From the NCBI GenBank assembly GCA_964016885.1, contig OZ024740.1:272986001-273050000 (forward strand): a DNA stretch of 64,000 nucleotides. Reading direction: 5' to 3'. The translations under genes were made by a program, and so were the position numbers. Positions 20,080-61,874 of this stretch are shown here, one piece after another. The notes under the pieces are model-generated. The model did not search any database, was not told where the DNA came from, and saw only the letters and a program-made list of their open reading frames with translations. Position 1 is the stretch's first letter. Every line of letters begins with the position of its first letter. This DNA is from Eledone cirrhosa. Its lineage: Eukaryota.

Positions 20080-20115
<36 letters not shown>

Positions 20116-20206
20116 CGAAGGAAATGTGGAAAGGAACCAGGTGGACCATAACGCACCAAAGTACTCAATACTTGAGGTAGTAGAGTGGGTAATATGAACC
20201 AGTAAG

Positions 20207-20300
20207 ACCCCGACAGCTGAGCTCAAGCCGTTTCGACGGCTAATTCTGGACTAAATGAAAATTTATCCTGGTATTTAAATAGCCGATCTTCTCAAGGGGT
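20207..20300 (-). ncRNA. HHR with U3-A8 variant core (element sense copy)
   Basis: Reverse complement of 23258-23351. Confidence 0.75.
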
Positions 20301-21435
20301 AATTCCATATATGGTCAAAGTGATTGTCAAAAATCAGTAGTAATTCTGTGGTTGCAAATTAGTAGGGGAGATGGTGGCTAAACCTGCCAGTAGGAGAAAG
20401 AGGGGAGGGGTGGAGTAGACCCAATCAAGCGTTTGTAGTGCCAGCTACAGCTGGGCATGAGGTCAAAGAAGATACAGGGGAGGGGGAGGGGGAGGAAGTC
20501 GGAACGGTAGGTAGAACAATGGGGGGTAGAAATATAGGAAAGAAAAAATACTGAGAGTGAAAAAAAGCAAATAAGTGTAAAGAAAAACAAATGAGTGTAA
20601 AGAAAAAAGTAAAGTAAATTAAATTCTACGACCTAGGTCTCTAGCTATTGGTAGGCTAGAATAAATAAATAAATAAATAAATAAAGAAAGAAGTAAAGAA
20701 AGAAATAAAGAAATAACGAAATAAGTAAAAGAACTAGGTGGGACGGATTAGGCGAGGACCCTTTTAAGAGGTATAAGTACGTAAATGATACGGTGACGGG
20801 TCAACAAAAGGGGCCAAAATACTAAAGAGACTACCACGAAATAAACAATAAAGGTTTCCATGCCGGGCACAATTCCAGCAACCACCCAGTGCAGCAAAGT
20901 GAACTAATACGAGATAATAATTCTGAGTCCCGAGAAAAATATATACTAATGCTAACTCTAAAAGATCTAAAACAAGCTACATGAAAGTTCGTACGAAGTA
21001 AAGGTAGAATACGGAAAAATAAATTCAGAATCCACCCCGCCCAAAAGAAAAGCGAAGAAAGAAATACTGAAACGAAAAAATAAGGCATAAGTGCCACTAA
21101 GAAATATAGAGGGTACGGAGAAAGGTGGGAGCGGTCGGAAAAAGGGGACAAGTATCCGAGGTCTAAACCAACTGCTATAAAGGGCGGAGTCCGCCAAATC
21201 TATCCTAGACTAGGGGTGGGAGTGGGGGTACTAAGGCTACAAGGGGCCAAAGGGCAGCCTCGGGTGGGCGAGAAAAGACGCCGACAAAGGAGAAGAGCTG
21301 GGGTAGAAGGACTAAGGAGAGAGGGGGGAAGGAAGGAGATAAAGGAAGCGATAAAAGAATACAAAGAAGATCTTACGTCTCCCTTGGCAAGCAGGGGTTA
21401 CCCATTGCAAAATCGGCAAGTGGGGTGCTATAGCC

Positions 21436-22330
21436 CTAGTCTACCCCCCCCCCCGGGTCATTATGGGGTTTGAGGGCGAGGTAAGTCCTACGCAATCTAT
21501 GTTTACATGCAGTAACCAGTTCATCTTTCTTGTTTAGGAGTTGGTCCGTCGAAAACAGCATTTGTAAAGTTTCCTCCGAGCATAAATTGCACGGACGGCG
21601 TCCTCCCGTGTAAGAATTGGCTCTGGACAGTAATCTCCAAGTGAGATCATAGGTGATGTTGTTGTCCTTGAGGTCCCATATGTGGCCCGAAAGTGTAGTG
21701 GCGTGACGCCGGGCCGGGTTTCGGAAGGTATGTCTATGTTGGTATAGCCGGGTCTTGAAGTCACATGCGGTAAGTCCTATATAGGCTTTGTTGGAGGTAT
21801 CCGTCCTCACGTTGCACTGGTAGATCACATTACGGTCTCTGCATCTATTGTCGAGTGGGCAAATAGATCTATCCGGGCAGTTACACCTCCTGGTCGGTTC
21901 TCCACTGCTATTTAGGTTATTTCTGCCATCGGGGTTGAGTTTTTTGTTGTTAGAGGAGACGATGTTTTGTGCGAAGTTTGGTGTAGTGCTGTAAGAGAGT
22001 TTGATGGTATTTTTGTTAATTATGTTGTGGTAGCGGTGTTGTAATGGGAAGTGTTTTTCAATGAGCCTAAAGAATAGTTTCCCGATGGGAGTTGTCACCT
22101 CTGCTTTGTGGGGAGGATTGAAGCATGTTACATTGCGTGAGCGGTGGTGTCTCCTGCTGGTTCCGCTAATGGGAGCTGGACAGTAGGATATTTCCTCCCG
22201 GAAACCACTCCGCTTGAGGGCCTGGTTGTAATAAGGCGCATGTTCATCGAATATCCGCTCATTAGCTGACAAACGGGATATGCGGAGGGAGATGTTTTTG
22301 ACCAGGTTGTTTGTGATGTTCCTAGGATGA
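21436..22330 (-). CDS. PLE ORF C-terminus: RT thumb end plus GIY-YIG endonuclease (truncated)
   Basis: FNPP, NTIKLSYS, CNCPDRSICPLDNRC, NVIYQC..AYIGLTACDFKTRLYQH, CNLCSEE. Confidence 0.9.
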
Positions 22331-23257
22331 GTACCCCCACCCCCACCCCTAGTCTAGGATAGATTTGGCGGACTCCGCCCTTTATAGCAGTTGGTTTAGA
22401 CCCCGGATACTTGTCCCCTTTTTCCGACCGCTCCCACCTTTCTCCGTGCCCTCTATATTTCTTAGTGGCACTTATGCCTTATTTTTTCGTTTCAGTATTT
22501 CTTTCTTCGCTTTTCTTTTGGGCGGGGTGGATTCTGAATTTATTTTTCCGTATTCTACCTTTACTTCGTACGAACTTTCATGTAGCTTGTTTTAGATCTT
22601 TTAGAGTTAGCATTAGTATATATTTTTCTCGGGACTCAGAATTATTATCTCGTATTAGTTCACTTTGCTGCACTGGGTGGTTGCTGGAATTGTGCCCGGC
22701 ATGGAAACCTTTATTGTTTATTTCGTGGTAGTCTCTTTAGTATTTTGGCCCCTTTTGTTGACCCGTCACCGTATCATTTACGTACTTATACCTCTTAAAA
22801 GGGTCCTCGCCTAATCCGTCCCACCTAGTTCTTTTACTTATTTCGTTATTTCTTTATTTCTTTCTTTACTTCTTTCTTTATTTATTTATTTATTTATTCT
22901 AGCCTACCAATAGCTAGAGACCTAGGTCGTAGAATTTAATTTACTTTACTTTTTTCTTTACACTCATTTGTTTTTCTTTACACTTATTTGCTTTTCTTCA
23001 CTCTCAGTATTTTTTCTTTCCTATATTTCTACCCCCCATTGTTCTACCTACCGTTCCGACTTCCTCCCCCTCCCCCTCCCCTGTATCTTCTTTGACCTCA
23101 TGCCCAGCTGTAGCTGGCACTACAAACGCTTGATTGGGTCTACTCCACCCCTCCCCTCTTTCTCCTACTGGCAGGTTTAGCCACCATCTCCCCTACTAAT
23201 TTGCAACCACAGAATTACTACTGATTTTTGACAATCACTTTGACCATATATGGAATT

Positions 23258-23351
23258 ACCCCTTGAGAAGATCGGCTATTTAAATACCAGGATAAATTTT
23301 CATTTAGTCCAGAATTAGCCGTCGAAACGGCTTGAGCTCAGCTGTCGGGGT
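23258..23351 (+). ncRNA. HHR with U3-A8 variant core
   Basis: acccc-TTGAGAA-gatcggcta..tagccgtc-GAAA-cggc(ttgagctca)gctg-TC-ggggt. Confidence 0.75.
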
Positions 23352-23380
23352 CTTACTGGTTCTTATATATATATATATAT

Positions 23381-23720
23381 AAAGATGAAATCGAAAATGC
23401 AACTGGAGTCTTATTTTAAAAAGAATATATATATTTATTTGGTTCCTTTACCGGTTTCGCAGTTCTTCTGCTTTTCAAAAGTAGAGTTGAGATGGAGGTT
23501 CTGTGGTTTTTCTCATATCTGAGAAAAACCACAGACCCTCCATCTCAACTCTACTTTTGAAAAGCAGAAGAATTGCGAAACCGGTAAAGGAACCAAATAA
23601 ATATATATATATATATTTTTAAATAAGACTCCAGTTGCCTTTTCGATTTCATCTTTTTTTCTTTATACTTTCCTGGTGTAGGACACGTCGGTGATTTTTC
23701 ATTTTGTAAAAAAACCTCAC

Positions 23721-27669: not shown

Positions 27670-27810
27670 ATGGAGGCAGTAAAAAGCAGTTAGACCATTA
27701 CTGACCAGAGTACTCGATATTTGGGGTAGTAGCATGGGTAATATGACAAATTCGTGACCTCGACCAATTGAACGGGCCGGAGCTCACCCGTCGAGGTCCC
27801 GAATTTTTCA
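27670..27810. mobile_element. Mini PLE-end hairpin related to the 20114 element
   Basis: Palindrome 27742-27810 with cggg(ccggagctca)cccg-TC. The left tail resembles 20130-20195. Confidence 0.6.
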
Positions 27811-27811
27811 T

Positions 27812-27843
<32 letters not shown>

Positions 27844-28979: not shown

Positions 28980-30560
28980 GCAAATCGAGGAAGTCGGCAC
29001 CTTACTAAAGGAATACGAAAGTCTCACAGGAGCGAAGCTGAACCGGGACAAGTCCATCGGTTTGCAACTCGGATCGTGGAGAGGCAGACCAATGCCTTCC
29101 GATGGCGTCGTCGGACGCTGGACGGAAGGACCGGTAAAGCTGCTCGGGGTCTGGTTTGGTCCGGACCTCCAGGTGGAGAAGAACTGGAACGAAGTGACGG
29201 CCAAGGTGTTTGCACTCACCCAGAAGTGGGCCGAGTGCAAACTATCCTTGAAAGGTCGAGCGGAGGTGGCGAACACTTTTATAGCGTCCGCCATCTACTA
29301 GCGCTTGACCGTCGTGCCTTGACCAGCCAAAACGCTCGCCAAAATGGAGCGCGCGCTCTTCCGATTCCTTTGGAAGAGGCGGGCTCCTTTGGTGAGAAGA
29401 TCCATCTGCTGCCAACACCCTTCTAACGGAGGGCTGGGGATGCCGTGGTTGACGATGCGCAAACACGCGCTCAGGCTGCGGCATCTCTACGTATTCCTCA
29501 CCGGACAACCGGTGTGGGCCCCGTTCGTGAGGCGAGCCTTCCCACGACTCGTCTCGCTGACCGAGCTGCAGTCCTGGGACAAGCAGAGACCGAGGAAAAT
29601 GGGCGACTGGCACATCGAATGTGCTCAGGCGCTCACAGCCCTCTGGCAGGCGGACCCGGCGATCAGTGGAGACTCCACTTCGTCATTCTATAGAGGGTTG
29701 GTCCGCAGCAAGTGCGACGACGCGCTCGGTGAAACTCTAGGCGTAGAGGAAGATGAACTGGCCAGTCTGTTCGGTAGGACCTTCCGCCCGGGACCGATGG
29801 ACAACTTCCAAAAGTCCCTGGCCTGGCAGTGCTACCGAGGAGCTCTACCAGTTCGAGACAAGCTCTACAGACATGGGCGCCCGGGCATGGACCCTGCAAA
29901 AAAGATCTGTCCGAGGTGCGTGCGAGACGAAGAAACCGTCGCGCACGCATTCATACACTGCCCGGGCGTCACTGACCTGTGGGGCTATGTAGAACGACTA
30001 TTGTCGCGGGTGGGACCAATCCAGTTGACCACCGAGTCCATTGTCATGATCAAACCGCCACCCTCCTTCAAAAACGAAGGAGAGGCGGTTTTCCTTTGTG
30101 TGATAGCTATGGCGAAAGAGGTTGTATGGTGGACAAGGTTGAAAGGGCTGAGGTCAGACACCTTTCTCTCCGGCCAACAACTGATTCTTTTTTTCAAATA
30201 CCACTTTGGAAGAAGAATGAGGATGGAGAGAGTGGTGCTGTACCCCAGCAAGTTTTATGAAAGGTGGGTGAAAGTGGCGAGAATGGCCCGAGTGAATGGG
30301 CCTTCTCTCTATATCAGCCTATAGGTTGAGGAAAAGGAGGAGGAGAGGAAAGGAGTACAAGCTCTTCGTAATCCTGGAGATGAGGGTTGCACATTTTTTT
30401 TCAGGGGTATGTGTTACCCATATAAACTGTCTCCCTCTATTGGGGAAAATCGACTAACTTTTAACTTCCATCTGTGATAACATTTTACACGTTGTTATTG
30501 TATGCAAACTTCCCCCTTTGTATTTGTCCCCTTCTTTTGTGCCCCTGTGGCTAATAAAGA
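28980..30560 (+). mobile_element. 5'-truncated Tx1/L1-clade LINE (ORF2 C-terminus plus 3' UTR)
   Basis: One frame ~28981-30324 with two premature stops (~29299, ~29320). Motifs VKLLGVWFG, LSLKGRAEVANTFI, GGLGMP and the CPRC..ETVAHAFIHC zinc finger. AATAAA is followed by TATC-like repeats. Confidence 0.85.
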
Positions 30561-45368: not shown

Positions 45369-45853
<485 letters not shown>

Positions 45854-47740: not shown

Positions 47741-50020
47741 ACCCTGCCCAAAAGATTGAATGCTGCTCGTCTTAAGGATAAAAATGTGAAGAGGACATTG
47801 GAAGAAGAGATGCAGGCTGCAGATCTTGGTGAGGATTGGCCGACCCTTAAAAAGTCGGTTTATGATGTAGGCAGGCGTGTTCTGGGATTGGCGCAGAGGA
47901 AACATCAGGACTGGTTAATGAGAATGATGTACATATAGAAGACTTGTTGGCTGATAAGAGGCGTGCTCTGTGACGCTACTTGACGGCAAAAACACAGGAG
48001 ATGAGTACGTTGCATGAGGAACTCAGGGATGTAAAATCACGTGTTAGGCGGAGTCTTTCTCAGATGAAGGATCAGTGGTGGAGTGAGAAGGCTGGTGAGA
48101 TACAAACTGCGTCTGATTCCAATAAGACAAAGCTGTTGTACAGTCTCTTGCGTGAGGTTTATGGACCGTCTTCTTCTCTGGTGTCACCGCTTCGCAGCAA
48201 GGATGGCAAAGAACTTCTTCGTGACTCAAAAGGAATTCTACGAAGGTGGCGAGAGCACTTTGATGATCTTTTGAATCAGCCGTCTGTCGTCAGTGAAGAT
48301 TTCCTCAATCTCATTCCAGAAAGTCCTGTGGAAGTAGCTCTCGCAGAACCTCCGACGCTTGTGGAGGTTGCAGTGGCTATTTCGAAGCTGAACAGTGGAA
48401 GATCTCCAGGTATGGATGGCATACATGCTGAGCTCCTACAATATGGTGGTGAGAGACTCCTGCAAGATCTTCACTCTTTGTTTGGCAGGATATGGGCTAA
48501 TAAATCCGTACCTGAGGACTGGAGAGATGCAGTAATGGTGGTCTTGTACAAGGGAAATGGTAACAGGAACGATTGTGGGAACTACAGAGGTATATCATTG
48601 CTTTCTGTCGTAGGGAAAGTTTTATGTAGGGTGCTTCTGGACCGTCTGCTGACACACATTGCAGATTGTGTTCTTCCTGAAAGTCAATCTGGTTTTCGTG
48701 CTGGACGCGGCACTATTGATATGATCTTCTCAGCTAGACAGCTCCAGGAGAAGTGCATGGAACAAGGCTTGGATCTGTATCAGGTTTTTGTCGATCTGAC
48801 AAAAGCTTTCGATACTGTTAACAGAGGTGCATTATGGAAGGTTCTCCAGAAACTTGGTTGCCCTGATAAGTTCCTTGCTTTAGTTAGGTCTTTCCATGAC
48901 GACATGAAGGCTTGGGTTAATGTCGGGGGTAACATGTCGGAGCCTATCTCAGTAAAAAATGGAGTGAAACAGGGGGATATTCCAGCACCGACCCTGTTTG
49001 CCATATACTTTGCAATGGTTTTCTGTATTGTATTCAGGAATTGCGAGCATGGTGTTTACATCCAATATCGAACCTCAGGCAGCATATTTAACATCAGGCG
49101 CTTTGCTGCGAAGACAAAAGTATTTACATCAATCATAAGAGACCTCCTGTGTGCAGATGATTGCGATCTTATAGAGCACACAGAGAGTGATATGCAGCAC
49201 ATTTTGAATGCATTTTCTGACGCTTGCACTGCCCTAGGTCTGACTGTCAGTCTCAAGAAAACCATCGTCATGTACCAACCTGCCCCTGGTAAGAAGTACA
49301 CTGAACCAAACATCTATGTGTATGGCAAACGACTTGGAGTGGTTGATCAGTTTGTCGACCTCGGAAGCACTGTCAATCGATACAGCAACCATGACAGTGA
49401 AATCTCACTTAGGATTAGGAAAGCAAGTGATGCTTTCGGAAAACTAGAAAGGCGACTCTGGGGTCGGCGAGACATATGCAGGAGGACAAAGGTAAAGGTG
49501 TACAGGGCATGTGTGCTCTCATGTCTTCTTTATGCCTGCGAGACCTGGGTCACATATCGACACCACCTTAAGCAATTGGAGCGTTTCCATCAGATGTGTC
49601 TCAGACGGATCCATGGCGTTCACTGGAGGGACCACATCAGTGATGTCGAGATTTTGGAAAGCTCTATGTGTGACAGTATAGAAGCTCTTGTGCTTAAGCA
49701 ACGACTCCGTTGGAGTGGTCACCTTGCCAGGATGAAGGATTCTAGAATACCAAAACAACTCTTTTATGGAGAGTTGATTAAAGGAAAACGACCGCCACAT
49801 AAACCAAAAAAGAGGTATAAGGAATCCTTCAACGCCTCTCTGAAAGACGCTAACATCTCTGCTGATACATGGGAGAATATTGCTGCTGAAAAGTACACGA
49901 ACTCCAACCACAACCGACTATTCCCAGTAAATGTTTTGGTTGCCGACTCTGTGCAAGGCATTTTAGATCATTGGCTGGGCTAAAAAGCCACATTCGATCG
50001 CAGCGCTGTTAGTTGCTATC
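47741..50020 (+). mobile_element. 5'-truncated RTE-clade (BovB-like) LINE
   Basis: Contains the 667-aa RT ORF. Upstream LPKRLN..RKHQDW and a downstream frameshifted C2H2-like motif. Confidence 0.92.
47980..49983 (+). CDS. RTE reverse transcriptase ORF (catalytic YADD appears as CADD; probably inactive)
   Basis: GRSPGMDGI, NYRGISLLS, QSGFRAGRGTIDM, FVDLTKAFDTV, GVKQG, LCADD, LRWSGHLARM. Confidence 0.9.
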   Translation: MTAKTQEMSTLHEELRDVKSRVRRSLSQMKDQWWSEKAGEIQTASDSNKTKLLYSLLREVYGPSSSLVSPLRSKDGKELLRDSKGILRRWREHFDDLLNQPSVVSEDFLNLIPESPVEVALAEPPTLVEVAVAISKLNSGRSPGMDGIHAELLQYGGERLLQDLHSLFGRIWANKSVPEDWRDAVMVVLYKGNGNRNDCGNYRGISLLSVVGKVLCRVLLDRLLTHIADCVLPESQSGFRAGRGTIDMIFSARQLQEKCMEQGLDLYQVFVDLTKAFDTVNRGALWKVLQKLGCPDKFLALVRSFHDDMKAWVNVGGNMSEPISVKNGVKQGDIPAPTLFAIYFAMVFCIVFRNCEHGVYIQYRTSGSIFNIRRFAAKTKVFTSIIRDLLCADDCDLIEHTESDMQHILNAFSDACTALGLTVSLKKTIVMYQPAPGKKYTEPNIYVYGKRLGVVDQFVDLGSTVNRYSNHDSEISLRIRKASDAFGKLERRLWGRRDICRRTKVKVYRACVLSCLLYACETWVTYRHHLKQLERFHQMCLRRIHGVHWRDHISDVEILESSMCDSIEALVLKQRLRWSGHLARMKDSRIPKQLFYGELIKGKRPPHKPKKRYKESFNASLKDANISADTWENIAAEKYTNSNHNRLFPVNVLVADSVQGILDHWLG

Positions 50021-55692: not shown

Positions 55693-55721
<29 letters not shown>

Positions 55722-55753
55722 AGATCAAAAGATGGTTAAAGGAGTTCAATATA

Positions 55754-55820
55754 TTTTATTATGCGCATTTCAAAAACAAACATCATCAAACAATAATATT
55801 TGTGTTTTCATCAGATAAAA
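55754..55820 (-). ncRNA. HHR in the inverted pLTR
   Basis: Reverse complement of 57828-57894. Confidence 0.85.
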
Positions 55821-57827
55821 CAGGAGAACATGATATGAAGGCTAAAAAAACACTTGTTGATAGTGCAGTTTTAAATCAACATATGAAAAGTGGTTTTAGA
55901 TTGATGTGTGATATTGGGAAAAATATTTTATTTAGAGAGGGGGGAGAGAAAAGGATGAAAAGGGAAGGAGATGAGAGGGAGAGATGGGTGATAGAGAGAA
56001 AGAGATAGTTTTTATAACTGAGAGGAGATATATTTTATATAGAGGGGTTGAAAACCGTTGGAAGATACTGTATAAATTAAAAATTTTGAAAATTAACGAA
56101 GGGAGGATATGTGCGAGGAAAAAATATATTATATTTAGGGAGGGGGGGGGGGTTGGAAAGGATGAAAAAAAGGGGAGGAGATGAGAGTGAAGGTGGAAAG
56201 GGAGAGATGGGTGATAGAGAGAAAGAGATAGTTTTTATAACTGAGAAAAAGATATAATGTTTTAATATAGAGAGGTTGGGAACCGTTGGAAGATAATGTA
56301 TAAATTAAAGGAATTTGAAAATTAACGAAGGGAAATTATGTATGAAGATAGAGAGAAAAAAATAATAATTGTGGGTGAATATTCTAACGTCAAAAGAAGA
56401 AATGTAGGAATTTTAAAATTAGCAAAGAGAAAAAGTTTATGTGTAGAAGGATTTGAGAAAAATAATGTGAAGTTAAAGTTTGTATATTGAATTCATATGT
56501 ATTAATAATGAGTTCGTTGATGGGGAGAAAAAAATAATAATAAATTAAGGATGAAATTGAGATTAAAAAGATTTATGATAGAGAGAAAAAATAATAATGA
56601 TTGCGGATGAATACTCAAAATGTCAAAAACAAATGTTATTGTTTTACGAGGAGATAGAATGAGGGTGATGAGTAAACGAGTATTATAGAGTGTATAATGC
56701 CCTTTAAAGTAAGGTAGATGGGTATATTTTAAAGAATATATGAGTATATATTAAAAAAATATATAATAATAAATTAAGGATGAAATTGAGATTAAAAAGA
56801 TTTATGATAGAGGGAAAAAAATAATAATGATTGCGGATGAATATTCAAAATGTCAAAAACAAATGTTATTGTTTTACGAGAAGATAGGATGAGGGTAATG
56901 AATAAACGAGTATTATAGAGTGTATAATGCCCTTTAAAGTAAGGTAGATGGGTATATTTTAAAGAGGTGTATGTATATGTGCCTTTGAGAAAAGATTCTA
57001 AATTGATAAAGAATTGAATATTAACTGTATACTTTGTGAAAAGTTCTATGGAATTTATGCAGGCAGATGGAAAACAAATCCGAGCATCTATTTATTATGG
57101 ATTCTAGGTTAGAGATAATGGTAAATTTTTCATTTAGGCAGAGATTACAGATTTTAGATAGAGAGCTGTTCAAGTACGAGGATGCAGAAGAAATCTTTTT
57201 CCAAAAGATGTTATATTTAATGTTTTTGTCTTTTAAGGACCATATGAGTTCTGAGAGAGCAGTGTTAGTTCTTTTAAGTTTGTATTTGAAAGATGAATGA
57301 TGATTATAGAGACGAGCTTTAAAAGAGGTGGAAGTGGAGCCAAAATAGGTGAAGGAATTGGTGCTAGTTATAATTTTACATTCATATTAAAACATTATAT
57401 CTTTTTCTCAGTTATAAAAACTATCGCTTTCTCTCTATCACCCATCTCTCCCTTTCCACCTTCACTCTCATCTCCTCCCCTTTTTTCATCCTTTCCACCC
57501 CCCCCTCCCTAAATATAATATATTTTTTCCTCGCACATATCCTCCCTTCGTTAATTTTCAAAATTTTTAATTTATACAGTATCTTCCAACGGTTTTCAAC
57601 CCCTCTATATAAAATATATCTCCTCTCAGTTATAAAAACTATCTCTTTCTCTCTATCACCCATCTCTCCCTCTCATCTCCTTCCCTTTTCATCCTTTTCT
57701 CTCCCCCCCTCTCTAAATAAAATATTTTTCCCAATATCACACATCAATCTAAAACCACTTTTCATATGTTGATTTAAAACTGCACTATCAACAAGTGTTT
57801 TTTTAGCCTTCATATCATGTTCTCCTG

Positions 57828-57894
57828 TTTTATCTGATGAAAACACAAATATTATTGTTTGATGATGTTTGTTTTTGAAATGCGCATAATAAAA
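57828..57894 (+). ncRNA. HHR in the 5' pLTR
   Basis: ttttat-CTGATGA-(12-bp G-U-rich stem II)-GAAA-tgcgca-TA-ataaaa. Confidence 0.88.
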
Positions 57895-58100
57895 TATATT
57901 GAACTCCTTTAACCATCTTTTGATCTTATATTATGCATACTCCAGTCCCACAAACTGTAGAGTGCTTCTTATCCGATATCTGCATTGCTTTATTGTACTA
58001 CAATAAAACTCACCTCCTACATTAACTTGCTCCTTAACGGTTGAGCGCTTACTCTCATATTGGATACCTTTTGATGGTCCTTCACCTCTTCTTCTACAAC

Positions 58101-60487
58101 ATGGATTATTACAACATAACCAATTCTACTAAAGACATTCCTATACCTGGTAAATCTGAATTCACCAAACTTCTTATTGAAAAAACCGACTCCTTCGTAA
58201 GAAGACTTAGATGGACAGCCTATTTCTATGACCAGCGCCTAAAAGGGAACACAACTTCCTCGATCATCTTTTTAATTCCAGACGAAATCCTCCTTCCAAC
58301 AAAAATCTAGCACAATTCGAGGAAGAATTAACTAAAATTATAAAAAATCTTAAATTCAAGAGATACCCTTACAAAGGACAAGAGCACCTTGTAAATCTCA
58401 AGAACACAATCTCTAACCTAAATTCCTCAAAAAATGTTTTAGTCCACTCTGACAAAACCAATAACCTATATGGTATTTCCAAGGATAATTATAACAACCT
58501 TATCCTAAAGGAACTTAGGAAAAAGTATCGTAAAACCAACCATGAAAATTTAGAATGCATAAACCTTGAAGCCTATGAGATTATGTCAAAACTTGGCATT
58601 GAAAAAAAGACCGAACCATTCCTCCCAAGAACTCCGAGGATAAATCTCAAGGATCACAAAAACAATTTTCGCACTGAACTACCTGTTAGATTAATCGCCC
58701 CCTCTAAATCTGATCTGGGGGTTGTTAGTAAAGCCATCTTGGATAGGATTATCCCACAGGTTAGTTCTAATTGCTCTTCTTTAAACCTAAATTTATGGTT
58801 TGGTACTTCTGAAGTGATTGGCTGGTTCAACAAATTGGATAATAAAAACAAACTAAAATTTATTCAATTCGATATTGCCAGCTACTATTCCTCCATTTCG
58901 CCTTCACTTCTCAATAATGCTCTATCTTTCGCACTTAAATATTCTGACATCACCACAGATGAACTTCACATCATCCTCACCGCACGTAAAACCATCCTAG
59001 AGTTCAACAACGAATATTGGACCAGAGCCGATACCTCTAACAACTTCGACATCACAATGGGAGCATCCGATTCATCCCAATTGACTGATTTAATTGGTAT
59101 CTTCATTTTGAACTCTCTGAGTCGGAAAATTCCTCAACTTCGCGGTGGAATTTATCGTGACGATGGACTCTTTACTATCCTAAATTGCAATATAGTTAAA
59201 CTTAATATTATTAAGAACAATATACGTAATCTCTTTAACCAACATAACCTAAAAATTGAATTTGATAATAGTACCAAACTAGCTAATTTCTTGGATGTAT
59301 CTCTTAATCTTGACACTGGCCTATATTACCCTTACCATAAAAACAATGAGAATCTTAATTATGTTAACTTTAAATCTAACCATCCTACCAATATCAAGAA
59401 TGCTATAGTTAATAATATTGGAAATAGAATATCTAACATATCTTCTAATAAAAACAGCTTTGATGCTAACGCCAATTACTATAATAACGCACTTTCTAAA
59501 GCCGGCTATCCAGATAAAATCAAATATAATAAAGAAACAAATTCTAGGAAAACTTACAGTAGAATATTTAATCATAACCATTCCAATAATTTTAATAAAA
59601 GACCTAGATACAAAAACATAATCTGGTATAATGCTCCTTTCTCCATCTCTATTAATAACAATATTCCTAAATTATTTTTTAGTGCCTTAAATAAATGCTT
59701 CCCTCCCTCACATATCTATAGTAAAATATTTAACAAACACACCATCAAATTTTCGTATTCTACATCCTCCAATATTTCCAACATCATCTCTAAACACAAC
59801 AACAAAATATTAAATACTAAATCTCTTCCTTCCAATATTGAATTTCATAATAACAATAATAGTACTCCTGACGTCATTATAAACCCTAGGCTAACTTCTC
59901 TAAACCCAAATGCAACGTCAAACACAACTTCGCTAAATGTTCATAATCCAACTCTAAATCAAGAAACTATTATTCCTATTATTCCTATCGCAAACAACTT
60001 CTCCAATCCAATTCCTTCTATAGATAACACTAGATCACTCATTAATAATCTCTCTAATTGCAACTGCCGCATTAAAAATAAATGTCCTCTCAACAACCAT
60101 TGCCTCGATAAAAACTTAATTTATGAATGTAAAATTATAACTAGCACCAATTCCTTCACCTATTTTGGCTCCACTTCCACCTCTTTTAAAGCTCGTCTCT
60201 ATAATCATCATTCATCTTTCAAATACAAACTTAAAAGAACTAACACTGCTCTCTCAGAACTCATATGGTCCTTAAAAGACAAAAACATTAAATATAACAT
60301 CTTTTGGAAAAAGATTTCTTCTGCATCCTCGTACTTGAACAGCTCTCTATCTAAAATCTGTAATCTCTGCCTAAATGAAAAATTTACCATTATCTCTAAC
60401 CTAGAATCCATAATAAATAGACGCTCGGATTTGTTTTCCATCTGCCTGCATAAATTCCATAGAACTTTTCACAAAGTATACAGTTAA
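58101..60487 (+). CDS. PLE polyprotein, RT plus GIY-YIG (~795 aa), with one frameshift near 58240-58262
   Basis: N-terminal STKDIPIP..LIEK..FVRRLRW, FDIASYYSSI, TMGA..S, YRDDGL, NFLDVSL, CNCR..CPL..C, TYFGST..FKARLYNH, CNLCLNEK. Confidence 0.92.
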
Positions 60488-61684
60488 TATTCAATTCTTT
60501 ATCAATTTAGAATCTTTTCTCAAAGGCACATATACATACACCTCTTTAAAATATACCCATCTACCTTACTTTAAAGGGCATTATACACTCTATAATACTC
60601 GTTTATTCATTACCCTCATCCTATCTTCTCGTAAAACAATAACATTTGTTTTTGACATTTTGAATATTCATCCGCAATCATTATTATTTTTTTCCCTCTA
60701 TCATAAATCTTTTTAATCTCAATTTCATCCTTAATTTATTATTATATATTTTTTTAATATATACTCATATATTCTTTAAAATATACCCATCTACCTTACT
60801 TTAAAGGGCATTATACACTCTATAATACTCGTTTACTCATCACCCTCATTCTATCTCCTCGTAAAACAATAACATTTGTTTTTGACATTTTGAGTATTCA
60901 TCCGCAATCATTATTATTTTTTCTCTCTATCATAAATCTTTTTAATCTCAATTTCATCCTTAATTTATTATTATTTTTTTCTCCTCATCAACGAACTCAT
61001 TATTAATACATATGAATTCAATATACAAACTTTAACTTCACATTATTTTTCTCAAATCCTTCTACACATAAACTTTTTCTCTTTGCTAATTTTAAAATTC
61101 CTACATTTCTTCTTTTGACGTTAGAATATTCACCCACAATTATTATTTTTTTTCTCTCTATCTTCATACATAATTTCCCTTCGTTAATTTTCAAATTCCT
61201 TTAATTTATACATTATCTTCCAACGGTTCCCAACCTCTCTATATTAAAACATTATATCTTTTTCTCAGTTATAAAAACTATCTCTTTCTCTCTATCACCC
61301 ATCTCTCCCTTTCCACCTTCACTCTCATCTCCTCCCCTTTTTTTCATCCTTTCCACCCCCCCTCCCTAAATATAATATATTTTTTCCTCGCACATATCCT
61401 CCCTTCGTTAATTTTCAAAATTTCTAATTTATACAGTATCTTCCAACGGTTTTCAACCCCTCTATATAAAATATATCTCCTCTCAGTTATAAAAACTATC
61501 TCTTTCTCTCTATCACCCATCTCTTCCTCTCATCTCCTTCCCTTTTCATCCTTTTCTCTCCCCCCCTCTCTAAATAAAATATTTTTCCCAATATCACACA
61601 TCAATCTAAAACCACTTTTCATATGTTGATTTAAAACTGCACTATCAACAAGTGTTTTTTTAGCCTTCATATCATGTTCTCCTG

Positions 61685-61751
61685 TTTTATCTGATGAAAG
61701 CACAAATATTATTGTTTGATGATGTTTGTTTTTGAAATGCGCATAATAAAA
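61685..61751 (+). ncRNA. HHR in the 3' pLTR
   Basis: Same motif as 57828-57894. Confidence 0.88.
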
Positions 61752-61874
61752 TATATTGAACTCCTTTAACCATCTTTTGATCTTATATTATGCATACTCC
61801 AGTCCCACAAACTGTAGAGTGCTTCTTATCCGATATCTGCATTGCTTTATTGTACTACAATAAAACTCACCTCC

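What the first reader, a model, noticed from the sequence alone, without database searches (positions are those of the whole stretch)
20207..23351. Young PLE carries an HHR with compensatory U3-A8 core, extended stem II and palindromic stem III loop
Seen: UUGAGAA in both near-identical arms, with complete stems I-III and a GUC site. The loop UGAGCUCA is self-complementary, and GAGCUCA is retained in diverged relatives (27780, 45467) whose stem III covaries (cggc/gctg, cggg/cccg, tggc/gccg). Known: C3-G8 is a tertiary pair that tolerates compensatory swaps. Inference: a functional variant HHR with a kissing or dimerisation loop.
Basis: partly seen in the sequence, partly recalled or inferred. 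Interest (0 to 1): 0.75.

Follow-up and report, generated by a model that had tools for sequence, protein, structure and literature searches.

The report
Variant hammerhead in Hydra-type Penelope retrotransposon
This is a real self-cutting-RNA (hammerhead) motif, of an already published variant type, in the end repeat of a young jumping gene with thousands of copies; a few percent of the copies begin exactly at the predicted cut, which likely records that it cuts in the living germ line, while pairing of two RNAs through its loop remains untested.

Summary
The hammerhead is real: a type I fold with UUGAGAA core at 20207-20300(-) and 23258-23351(+). The two arms are one head-to-head insertion of a young Penelope-like element (PLE) with Hydra-clade motifs. 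U3-A8 is family-wide: 2,757 of 2,798 copies, none C3-G8; an older subfamily has it too. U3-A8, a long helix II and a palindromic loop 3 with a dimer model are all published for PLE hammerheads, so this is not new. The claimed stem III covariation fails: 27780 and 45467 are short fold-back stubs without the catalytic strand, two variants are one-sided wobbles, and the third is private. Only GAGCUC (6 nt) stays constant across subfamilies. Added here: in 100 rows selected for ends near the cut, 30 copies start at the first base after it, against about 2.5 per neighbouring position, and both arms usually stop there together. That is indirect evidence of cleavage in vivo in about 2-5% of copies. 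Most short copies stop 34-44 nt upstream, inside the stem II extension; the cause is unresolved. The scan has noted both patterns in other genomes. No RNA reads could test cutting.

The parts
20207..20300 (-). Type I hammerhead, sense copy (same strand as the ORF), in the 3' pLTR; predicted cut between 20212 and 20211
23258..23351 (+). Identical hammerhead in the inverted arm; predicted cut after 23346
23263..23269 (+). Core UUGAGAA (U3 = 23263, A8 = 23268)
   Evidence: family-wide counts
23270..23323 (+). Stem II domain, 54 nt: 8-bp proximal helix with a bulged U, internal loop, distal hairpin. Its 3' strand (about 23302-23312) is where most short genomic copies stop
23327..23345 (+). Stem III ACGGC/GCUGU with 9-nt loop UUGAGCUCA; constant 6-nt palindrome GAGCUC at 23334-23339
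20112..20191 (-). PLE 'tail', about 80 nt, between the two fixed copy ends (about +20 and +100 from the cut); joined to (TA)n
20192..21435 (-). 3' UTR / pLTR of the sense arm
21448..22329 (-). 5'-truncated ORF: residues 424-717 of the family protein (linker CNCPDRSIC and GIY-YIG-type endonuclease; RT core missing), 98.6% identical to a full copy
22323..23366 (+). Inverted second arm, ending at +20 next to (TA)n
27670..27812 (.). Decayed fold-back stub of an older subfamily (stem III region plus tail); no catalytic core strand; approximate ends
45396..45586 (.). Fold-back stub of an older subfamily (two arms plus tail); no catalytic core strand; approximate ends

Best explanation
This is a type I hammerhead with a U3-A8 core in the pseudo-LTR of a young Penelope-like retrotransposon with Hydra-clade motifs, and it likely self-cleaves the element's RNA after GUC, but only in a minority of molecules. 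Shown: the fold, its place 190 nt upstream of the first ATG of the next unit, fixation of U3-A8 in young and old subfamilies, two fixed copy ends (+20 and about +100), and a spike of copy 5' ends at +1. Inferred: U3-A8 replaces C3-G8 as the Watson-Crick pair of the active core. The reverse transcriptase would start internally at +20 and +100 from both ends of a (TA)n break, making head-to-head arms. On a cut RNA both arms would run off at +1. On uncut, re-ligated or multimeric RNA they pass through the site, as in this window's copy. Cleavage most likely cuts tandem transcripts into unit-length RNA that can circularise. The GAGCUC loop may allow a swapped dimer but is predicted not to be required.
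For: Core fixed: of 2,798 young-family matches with open core positions, 23 lack U3 and none of these has G8; 18 have U3 without A8. Older subfamily, 85 matches read by eye: position 3 U 83/A 2/C 0, position 8 A 80/G 4/U 1. N7 differs between subfamilies (G versus U). Two stem II pairs change on both sides between subfamilies. Cut-site spike: of the first 100 of 563 rows selected for ends between -5 and +8, 30 start at +1; 6 at 0; 25 over the ten positions -4..-1 and +2..+7; 16 were G-run indels and 5 ambiguous (read by eye). Poisson P 3e-12 even against a mean of 6. In a sample not filtered for nearby ends, 5 of 87 tail arms start at +1 against 21 spread over 33 upstream positions (a sixth +1 row was a G insertion). 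In 10 of 12 fetched loci with a sense end at +1/+2 and a visible partner arm, the partner also ends at +1 or 0, and one junction shows repeated re-copying of the first 11 or so bases. Youth: 133 scored ORF hits at 98-100% identity and tandem 3,531-bp units. Literature: U3-A8 natural and active in vitro (PMC3088659); internal two-site initiation and uncut RNA as main template (PMC11167929).
Against: No direct test of cleavage. The one RNA run found was contigs only and covered 4 of 30 bins, not the ribozyme. Rfam finds no hammerhead. The fold is no more stable than shuffles, and with 158 nt of upstream context the predicted stem probabilities drop to 0.02-0.08. Stem II covariation is not beyond the shuffle control (236 of 500 shuffles reach 2 pairs). 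In older subfamilies the +1 signal is weak and noisy (about 6 of 100 rows by eye; 3 of 30 loci). About 95% or more of copies come from RNA not cut at this site. An RT pause at the junction or a minor transcription start could also give +1 ends.
Confidence: 0.75

Rival explanations
1. GAGCUC is a selected kissing or dimerisation loop: two element RNAs pair through it, and cleavage or the two-armed insertion depends on the dimer.
For: Loop positions 1, 2 and 9 vary among amplified subfamilies (UU/CG; A/U) while the six palindrome positions do not. The predicted duplex gain over two monomers is -15.5 to -16.5 kcal/mol, reached by 1, 3, 11 and 11 of 300 loop shuffles for the four commonest variants. 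Dimer cleavage is the published model for PLE hammerheads (PMC4209133). The 2+6+1 loop geometry recalls the HIV-1 dimerisation hairpin (recalled, no call).
Against: No compensatory change inside the palindrome. Only 3-4 related lineages, so constancy may be shared ancestry or a protein-binding site. Helix III is 5-6 bp (-4.9 to -6.1 kcal/mol), unlike the 0-2 bp helices that force dimers. The predicted product is an extended duplex, not a kissing complex.
Confidence: 0.25
2. The motif is kept but rarely or never cuts in vivo. The +1 ends are RT pauses or a minor start site, and the conserved structure serves as promoter or protein-binding scaffold.
For: Most short copies stop at -34..-44, not at the cut (57 of 87 tail arms and 57 of 70 second arms). 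In another PLE, hammerhead mutants did not affect insertion in vitro and no reads ended at the cut (PMC11167929). Upstream context is predicted to unfold the motif.
Against: No comparable pile-up at the bases of stem I (+5/+6: 0 rows) or stem II (-23/-24: 3 of 157 arms). A pause before helix III should end at 0, not +1. Both arms stop together at +1. The base before +1 ends is mostly T or A (17 T, 7 A, 6 G of 30), not a cap-derived G.
Confidence: 0.15
3. Cleavage matters mainly for translation: the cut leaves an uncapped RNA with a 190-nt leader that starts cap-independent translation of the RT-EN protein.
For: The first ATG lies at +191. Self-cleavage in 5' UTRs is reported to drive cap-independent translation in RNA viruses (PMC13725137, abstract only).
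Against: No data here; the precedent is fungal and plant viruses. It does not exclude the best explanation.
Confidence: 0.1

Closest known systems
Hammerheads in pLTRs of metazoan PLEs, including the U3-A8 variant of Schistosoma mansoni Cercyon elements (Cervera and de la Pena 2014, PMC4209133; parts 1-2 of 4 read)
   Same: Type I, in the pLTR, U3-A8 core (about 1,300 hits there), helix I of 4-5 bp, helix II of 7-8 bp, palindromic loop 3, proposed dimer and circularisation
   Different: Full 5-6 bp helix III with a 9-nt loop instead of a minimal one; no extra nucleotide between A9 and G10.1; 54-56 nt stem II domain; genomic 5' ends at the cut are not reported in the parts read
Natural U3-A8 hammerheads (Perreault et al. 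2011, PMC3088659; passages)
   Same: Same core covariation, stated to occur in several natural examples and to be active in vitro
   Different: The passages read do not place them in PLEs; long stem II extension here
Hydra clade of C-terminal EN+ PLEs (Craig et al. 2021, PMC8557442; section 11, passages, one supplement search)
   Same: DKT, RW-basic motif, CxCX5C linker, CxxC and CxH motifs, (TA)n insertion, hammerhead present, tail and inverted arm
   Different: Unit is 3.5 kb rather than under 3 kb; RWR for RWK; no tree built here
PAc Poseidon element of Anolis (Frangieh et al. 2024, PMC11167929; parts 1-2 of 4)
   Same: Two internal RT start sites defining a tail, AT-rich targets, uncut RNA as main template
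   Different: There the hammerhead overlaps the start codon, has C3-G8 and needs protein, and no RNA ends were found at the cut; here the start sites are about 80 nt apart and lie in the leader

Membership tests
Type I hammerhead ribozyme | Core N3-UGA-N-N8-A ... GAAA ... UH with a Watson-Crick 3-8 pair | tested here: met
   UUGAGAA, GAAA, GUC; U3-A8 in 2,757 of 2,798 copies
Type I hammerhead ribozyme | Three helices, open at stem I, with G10.1-C11.1 and A15.1-U16.1 | tested here: met
Type I hammerhead ribozyme | Match to an Rfam hammerhead model | tested here: not met
   No hammerhead family at E<=10 on 23200-23400; the long stem II and variant core probably fall outside the models (inference)
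Type I hammerhead ribozyme | Tertiary contact between loop II and stem/loop I | not tested
   No candidate contact was searched for systematically
Type I hammerhead ribozyme | Self-cleavage 3' of H17 | not testable with these tools
   Indirect only: 5'-end spike at +1; no raw RNA reads
Minimal PLE hammerhead (min-HHR) | Located in the pLTR, sense to the ORF | tested here: met
Minimal PLE hammerhead (min-HHR) | Helix II of 7-8 bp, helix I of 4-5 bp, palindromic loop 3 | tested here: met
Minimal PLE hammerhead (min-HHR) | Absent or 1-2 bp helix III | tested here: not met
   5-6 bp helix III with pair probabilities 0.6-0.75 for the first five pairs in the local fold
Minimal PLE hammerhead (min-HHR) | Extra nucleotide between A9 and G10.1 | tested here: not met
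   A9 is followed directly by G10.1; the bulge lies after 10.2
Hydra clade PLE | DKT for DKG; RWK-type motif; CxCX5C linker; CxxC and CxH in the endonuclease | tested here: met
   DKTG 117, CNCPDRSIC 572, CNLC 670, CKH 698; RLRWR read in the translation; definition
Hydra clade PLE | Insertion into (TA)n | tested here: met
Hydra clade PLE | Length generally under 3 kb | tested here: not met
   Tandem unit 3,531 bp because of a long 3' UTR; the paper says 'generally'
Hydra clade PLE | Phylogenetic placement and absence of CCHH | not tested
   No tree or alignment to reference clades; Pfam and PDB give no hit for the 717-aa protein
Palindromic kissing/dimerisation loop (HIV-1 DIS-like; recalled) | 6-nt self-complementary sequence in a 9-nt loop | tested here: met
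Palindromic kissing/dimerisation loop (HIV-1 DIS-like; recalled) | Compensatory changes that keep the palindrome | tested here: inconclusive
   No amplified change inside GAGCUC among 150 stem III sequences; only scattered single mutants
Palindromic kissing/dimerisation loop (HIV-1 DIS-like; recalled) | Dimer formation that depends on the loop | not testable with these tools
   Energy model only

The most novel reading that the evidence does not exclude
The GAGCUC loop dimerises two retrotransposon RNAs like a retroviral dimerisation signal, so that a dimeric RT-endonuclease holds two templates for the two-armed insertion. Transcription starts inside the extended stem II, so a fresh mRNA carries only half a hammerhead at its 5' end. 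That half is cut only when the 3' copy or a partner RNA supplies the missing strand, which gates unit-length processing; the genome's +1 and -40 copy ends record both steps.
Probability: 0.12. Interest if true: 0.7.

Novelty: new member of a known kind. Interest (0 to 1): 0.3.

Why it matters
The motif itself adds one more U3-A8 PLE hammerhead to a published class. What is useful is the setting. Whether PLE hammerheads cut in vivo and what for is still open (PMC8557442 calls the function unclear; PMC11167929 found no RNA ends at the cut). This family is young, has intact ORFs, and leaves a countable footprint at the cut site, about 12-fold over neighbouring positions, plus a second boundary inside stem II. 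That makes it a good system for testing cleavage, circularisation and RNA dimerisation in PLE retrotransposition.

Tried and rejected
Rfam: only microsatellite-driven miRNA noise among the 150 best of 393 window hits shown, and no hammerhead on the motif. Pfam and PDB found nothing for the ORF; 2,049 homologues were found, nearly all unnamed among the 120 listed. RNA evidence: one RNA run with a small share, contigs only, not covering the ribozyme, so uninformative. Stem III covariation rejected. The idea that the two arms are independent support was rejected: one insertion. The idea that the stubs are a self-copying mini-element was rejected: junctions differ from copy to copy. The idea that the older subfamily is a retrozyme was not supported: some copies link to endonuclease or ORF-start sequence. 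A capped transcription start at -40 is not shown: among the first 100 of 2,220 rows with A/T-only flanks, the base before -40 was G in 5 and C in 5, and most rows had T-runs (by eye). The TATA-like TATTTAAA is not kept in the older subfamily. A start site and an RT roadblock both remain open. Lunse et al. on PLE hammerhead dimers and Przybilski and Hammann 2007 were not held; only their titles were seen in reference lists. Searches for a printed report of genomic PLE ends at the hammerhead cut or of a kissing loop gave nothing to the point in the listings; most subscription journals are not searched. The supplements of PMC4209133 were not looked at, and only the first hits of one search in the PMC8557442 supplement were seen; either may hold related hammerheads.

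Full report
Observation. A strict type I descriptor finds one motif, twice and identical: 23258-23351 on + and 20207-20300 on -. It has a 5-bp stem I, core UUGAGAA, a 54-nt stem II domain, GAAA, a 5-6 bp stem III with loop UUGAGCUCA, and GUC. The MFE fold is the three-way junction but is no more stable than shuffles. Rfam misses it. The two copies lie in 1.04-kb inverted arms (1036 of 1048 columns identical) around a 5'-truncated ORF on the minus strand. The minus-strand copy is therefore the sense copy, and the arms are one insertion.

The element. The genome holds at least 133 ORF matches at 98-100% identity (only the best were scored). A tandem array gives a 3,531-bp unit with an ORF of at least 717 aa whose first ATG is at +191 from the predicted cut. 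The protein has YRDD, DKTG, CNCPDRSIC, a GIY-YIG-type IY..YIG, CNLC and CKH. These match the Hydra-clade description in PMC8557442 (section 11), as does insertion into (TA)n; no tree was built. Copies end at two fixed points, +20 and about +100. This fits the two internal RT start sites and the tail described for PAc (PMC11167929).

U3-A8. With all seven core positions left open, 2,798 copies match. Of these, 23 lack U3 (17 C, 4 A, 2 G; none has G8) and 18 have U3 without A8. An older PLE subfamily, about 72% identical over the motif, gives 85 matches with U3 in 83, C3 in none and A8 in 80. So the pair is old and fixed in this lineage while N7 changes. It is also published: natural U3-A8 cores, stated to be active in vitro (PMC3088659), and about 1,300 U3-A8 hits in Schistosoma found through a Cercyon PLE (PMC4209133). 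The latter paper also reports long helix II, palindromic loop 3 and the dimer model.

Stem II. Two pairs change on both sides between subfamilies, which is not beyond the shuffle control (236 of 500; 24 rows, 22 of them from the 30 older loci fetched). Long stem II domains are common among other hammerheads in the fetched loci.

The 'relatives' and the loop. 27780 and 45467 are short fold-back stubs that hold only the 3' half of the motif; 30 similar stubs were fetched. The ancestral stem III is ACGGC/GCCGU. The focal GCUGU and the AUGGC of 45467 are single transitions to wobble pairs. The 27780 variant was not found elsewhere. Among 150 stem III sequences picked by the tail motif, loop positions 1, 2 and 9 vary by subfamily while GAGCUC does not. 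The predicted dimer is an extended duplex (-26.3 kcal/mol against -4.9 per monomer), and its gain beats 289-299 of 300 loop shuffles. This keeps a dimer role possible, but there is no compensatory change in the palindrome and helix III can form in a monomer.

Where copies begin. 7,368 copies carry the tail junction. Among the first 100, 13 coincide with a core match. I fetched 91 of the 100; the 9 left out are core-bearing. In these loci 57 of 87 tail arms and 57 of 70 second arms start at -34..-44, in the 3' strand of the stem II extension. Older stubs stop at the homologous place (a sample selected by likeness to 45467). A second, sharp class starts at +1, the first base after the predicted cut: 5 of 87 tail arms against 21 over the 33 positions upstream. 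A search built to see both sides of the cut gave 563 matches. Of the first 100 rows, read by eye, 30 start at +1, 6 at 0, and 25 over ten neighbouring positions; 8 were at -5, 10 at +8 or beyond, 16 were G-run indels and 5 ambiguous. In 10 of 12 fetched loci with a +1/+2 end and a visible partner arm, the partner ends there too. This points to a physical RNA end at the scissile bond in roughly 2-5% of copies. The same test on older subfamilies was weak and noisy.

Mechanism. Shown: fold, position, fixation, fixed starts and end distributions. Inferred: U3-A8 supports catalysis, the RNA is cut slowly or partly, and the RT copies from +20 and +100 at both ends of a break. Cut templates would give +1 stubs; uncut, circular or multimeric templates would give long copies such as this one. 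17 of 18 chosen full-ORF copies run past the upstream hammerhead. The -34..-44 boundary may be a transcription start (an initiator-like TTAGT is conserved; internal promoters are known for Penelope, PMC2377424) or an RT roadblock. A cap-derived G was not enriched, so it stays unexplained. This window's copy lacks the RT and cannot move by itself.

Prior scan notes. After forming this reading I checked earlier notes. U3-A8 PLE hammerheads, cut-site footprints and an upstream boundary at about -31 to -33 have each been noted in other genomes, some with only mild enrichment at the cut. These are unchecked notes and were not used as support.

Verdict. A real and probably functional hammerhead of a known variant in a known kind of retrotransposon. 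The covariation claim is wrong and the kissing-loop claim is untested. The cut-site footprint is the most useful addition; I found no printed report of it in the listings. Interest 0.3.

Noticed in passing
window 55709-61796: A second PLE (750-aa frame at 58232-60487, 37% identical to this family) with three canonical C3-G8 hammerheads (55752-55822 -, 57826-57896 +, 61683-61753 +) and a fully palindromic stem III.
   Followed up: partly
window about 23440-23600: Near-perfect hairpin of another family directly after the element's inverted arm.
   Followed up: no
G000, rows; L177: Many junctions at -41..-43 carry long T-runs on the sense strand (A-runs on the cDNA), as if the RT stuttered on the UUU there; 2,220 matches have A/T-only flanks.
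   Followed up: partly
L256 around 1430-1510: Several repeated copies of the first 8-11 bases after the cut sit in the junction, like reiterative copying at a template end.
   Followed up: no
G000:C1 437.20-437.21 Mb (L091, L092) and C1 91.47-91.49 Mb: Tandem arrays of five full units, 3.53-3.54 kb apart. 17 of 18 chosen full-ORF copies extend past the upstream hammerhead, so templates are longer than one unit.
   Followed up: partly
L020:2203-2247, L101:1038-1083: An unrelated small hammerhead family with a U3-A8 core and palindromic stem III; many other hammerhead families occur in the flanks.
   Followed up: no
alignment A2, columns 14 and 67: The second pair of stem II is a U-U or C-U mismatch in older subfamilies and A-U only in the youngest.
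   Followed up: no
window 29323-30324 and 47974-49983: LINE-type reverse transcriptase remnants (zf-RVT and RVT_1).
   Followed up: no
L129/L132 and L130/L131: Near-identical locus pairs (inverted segmental duplication), so they are not independent copies.
   Followed up: no
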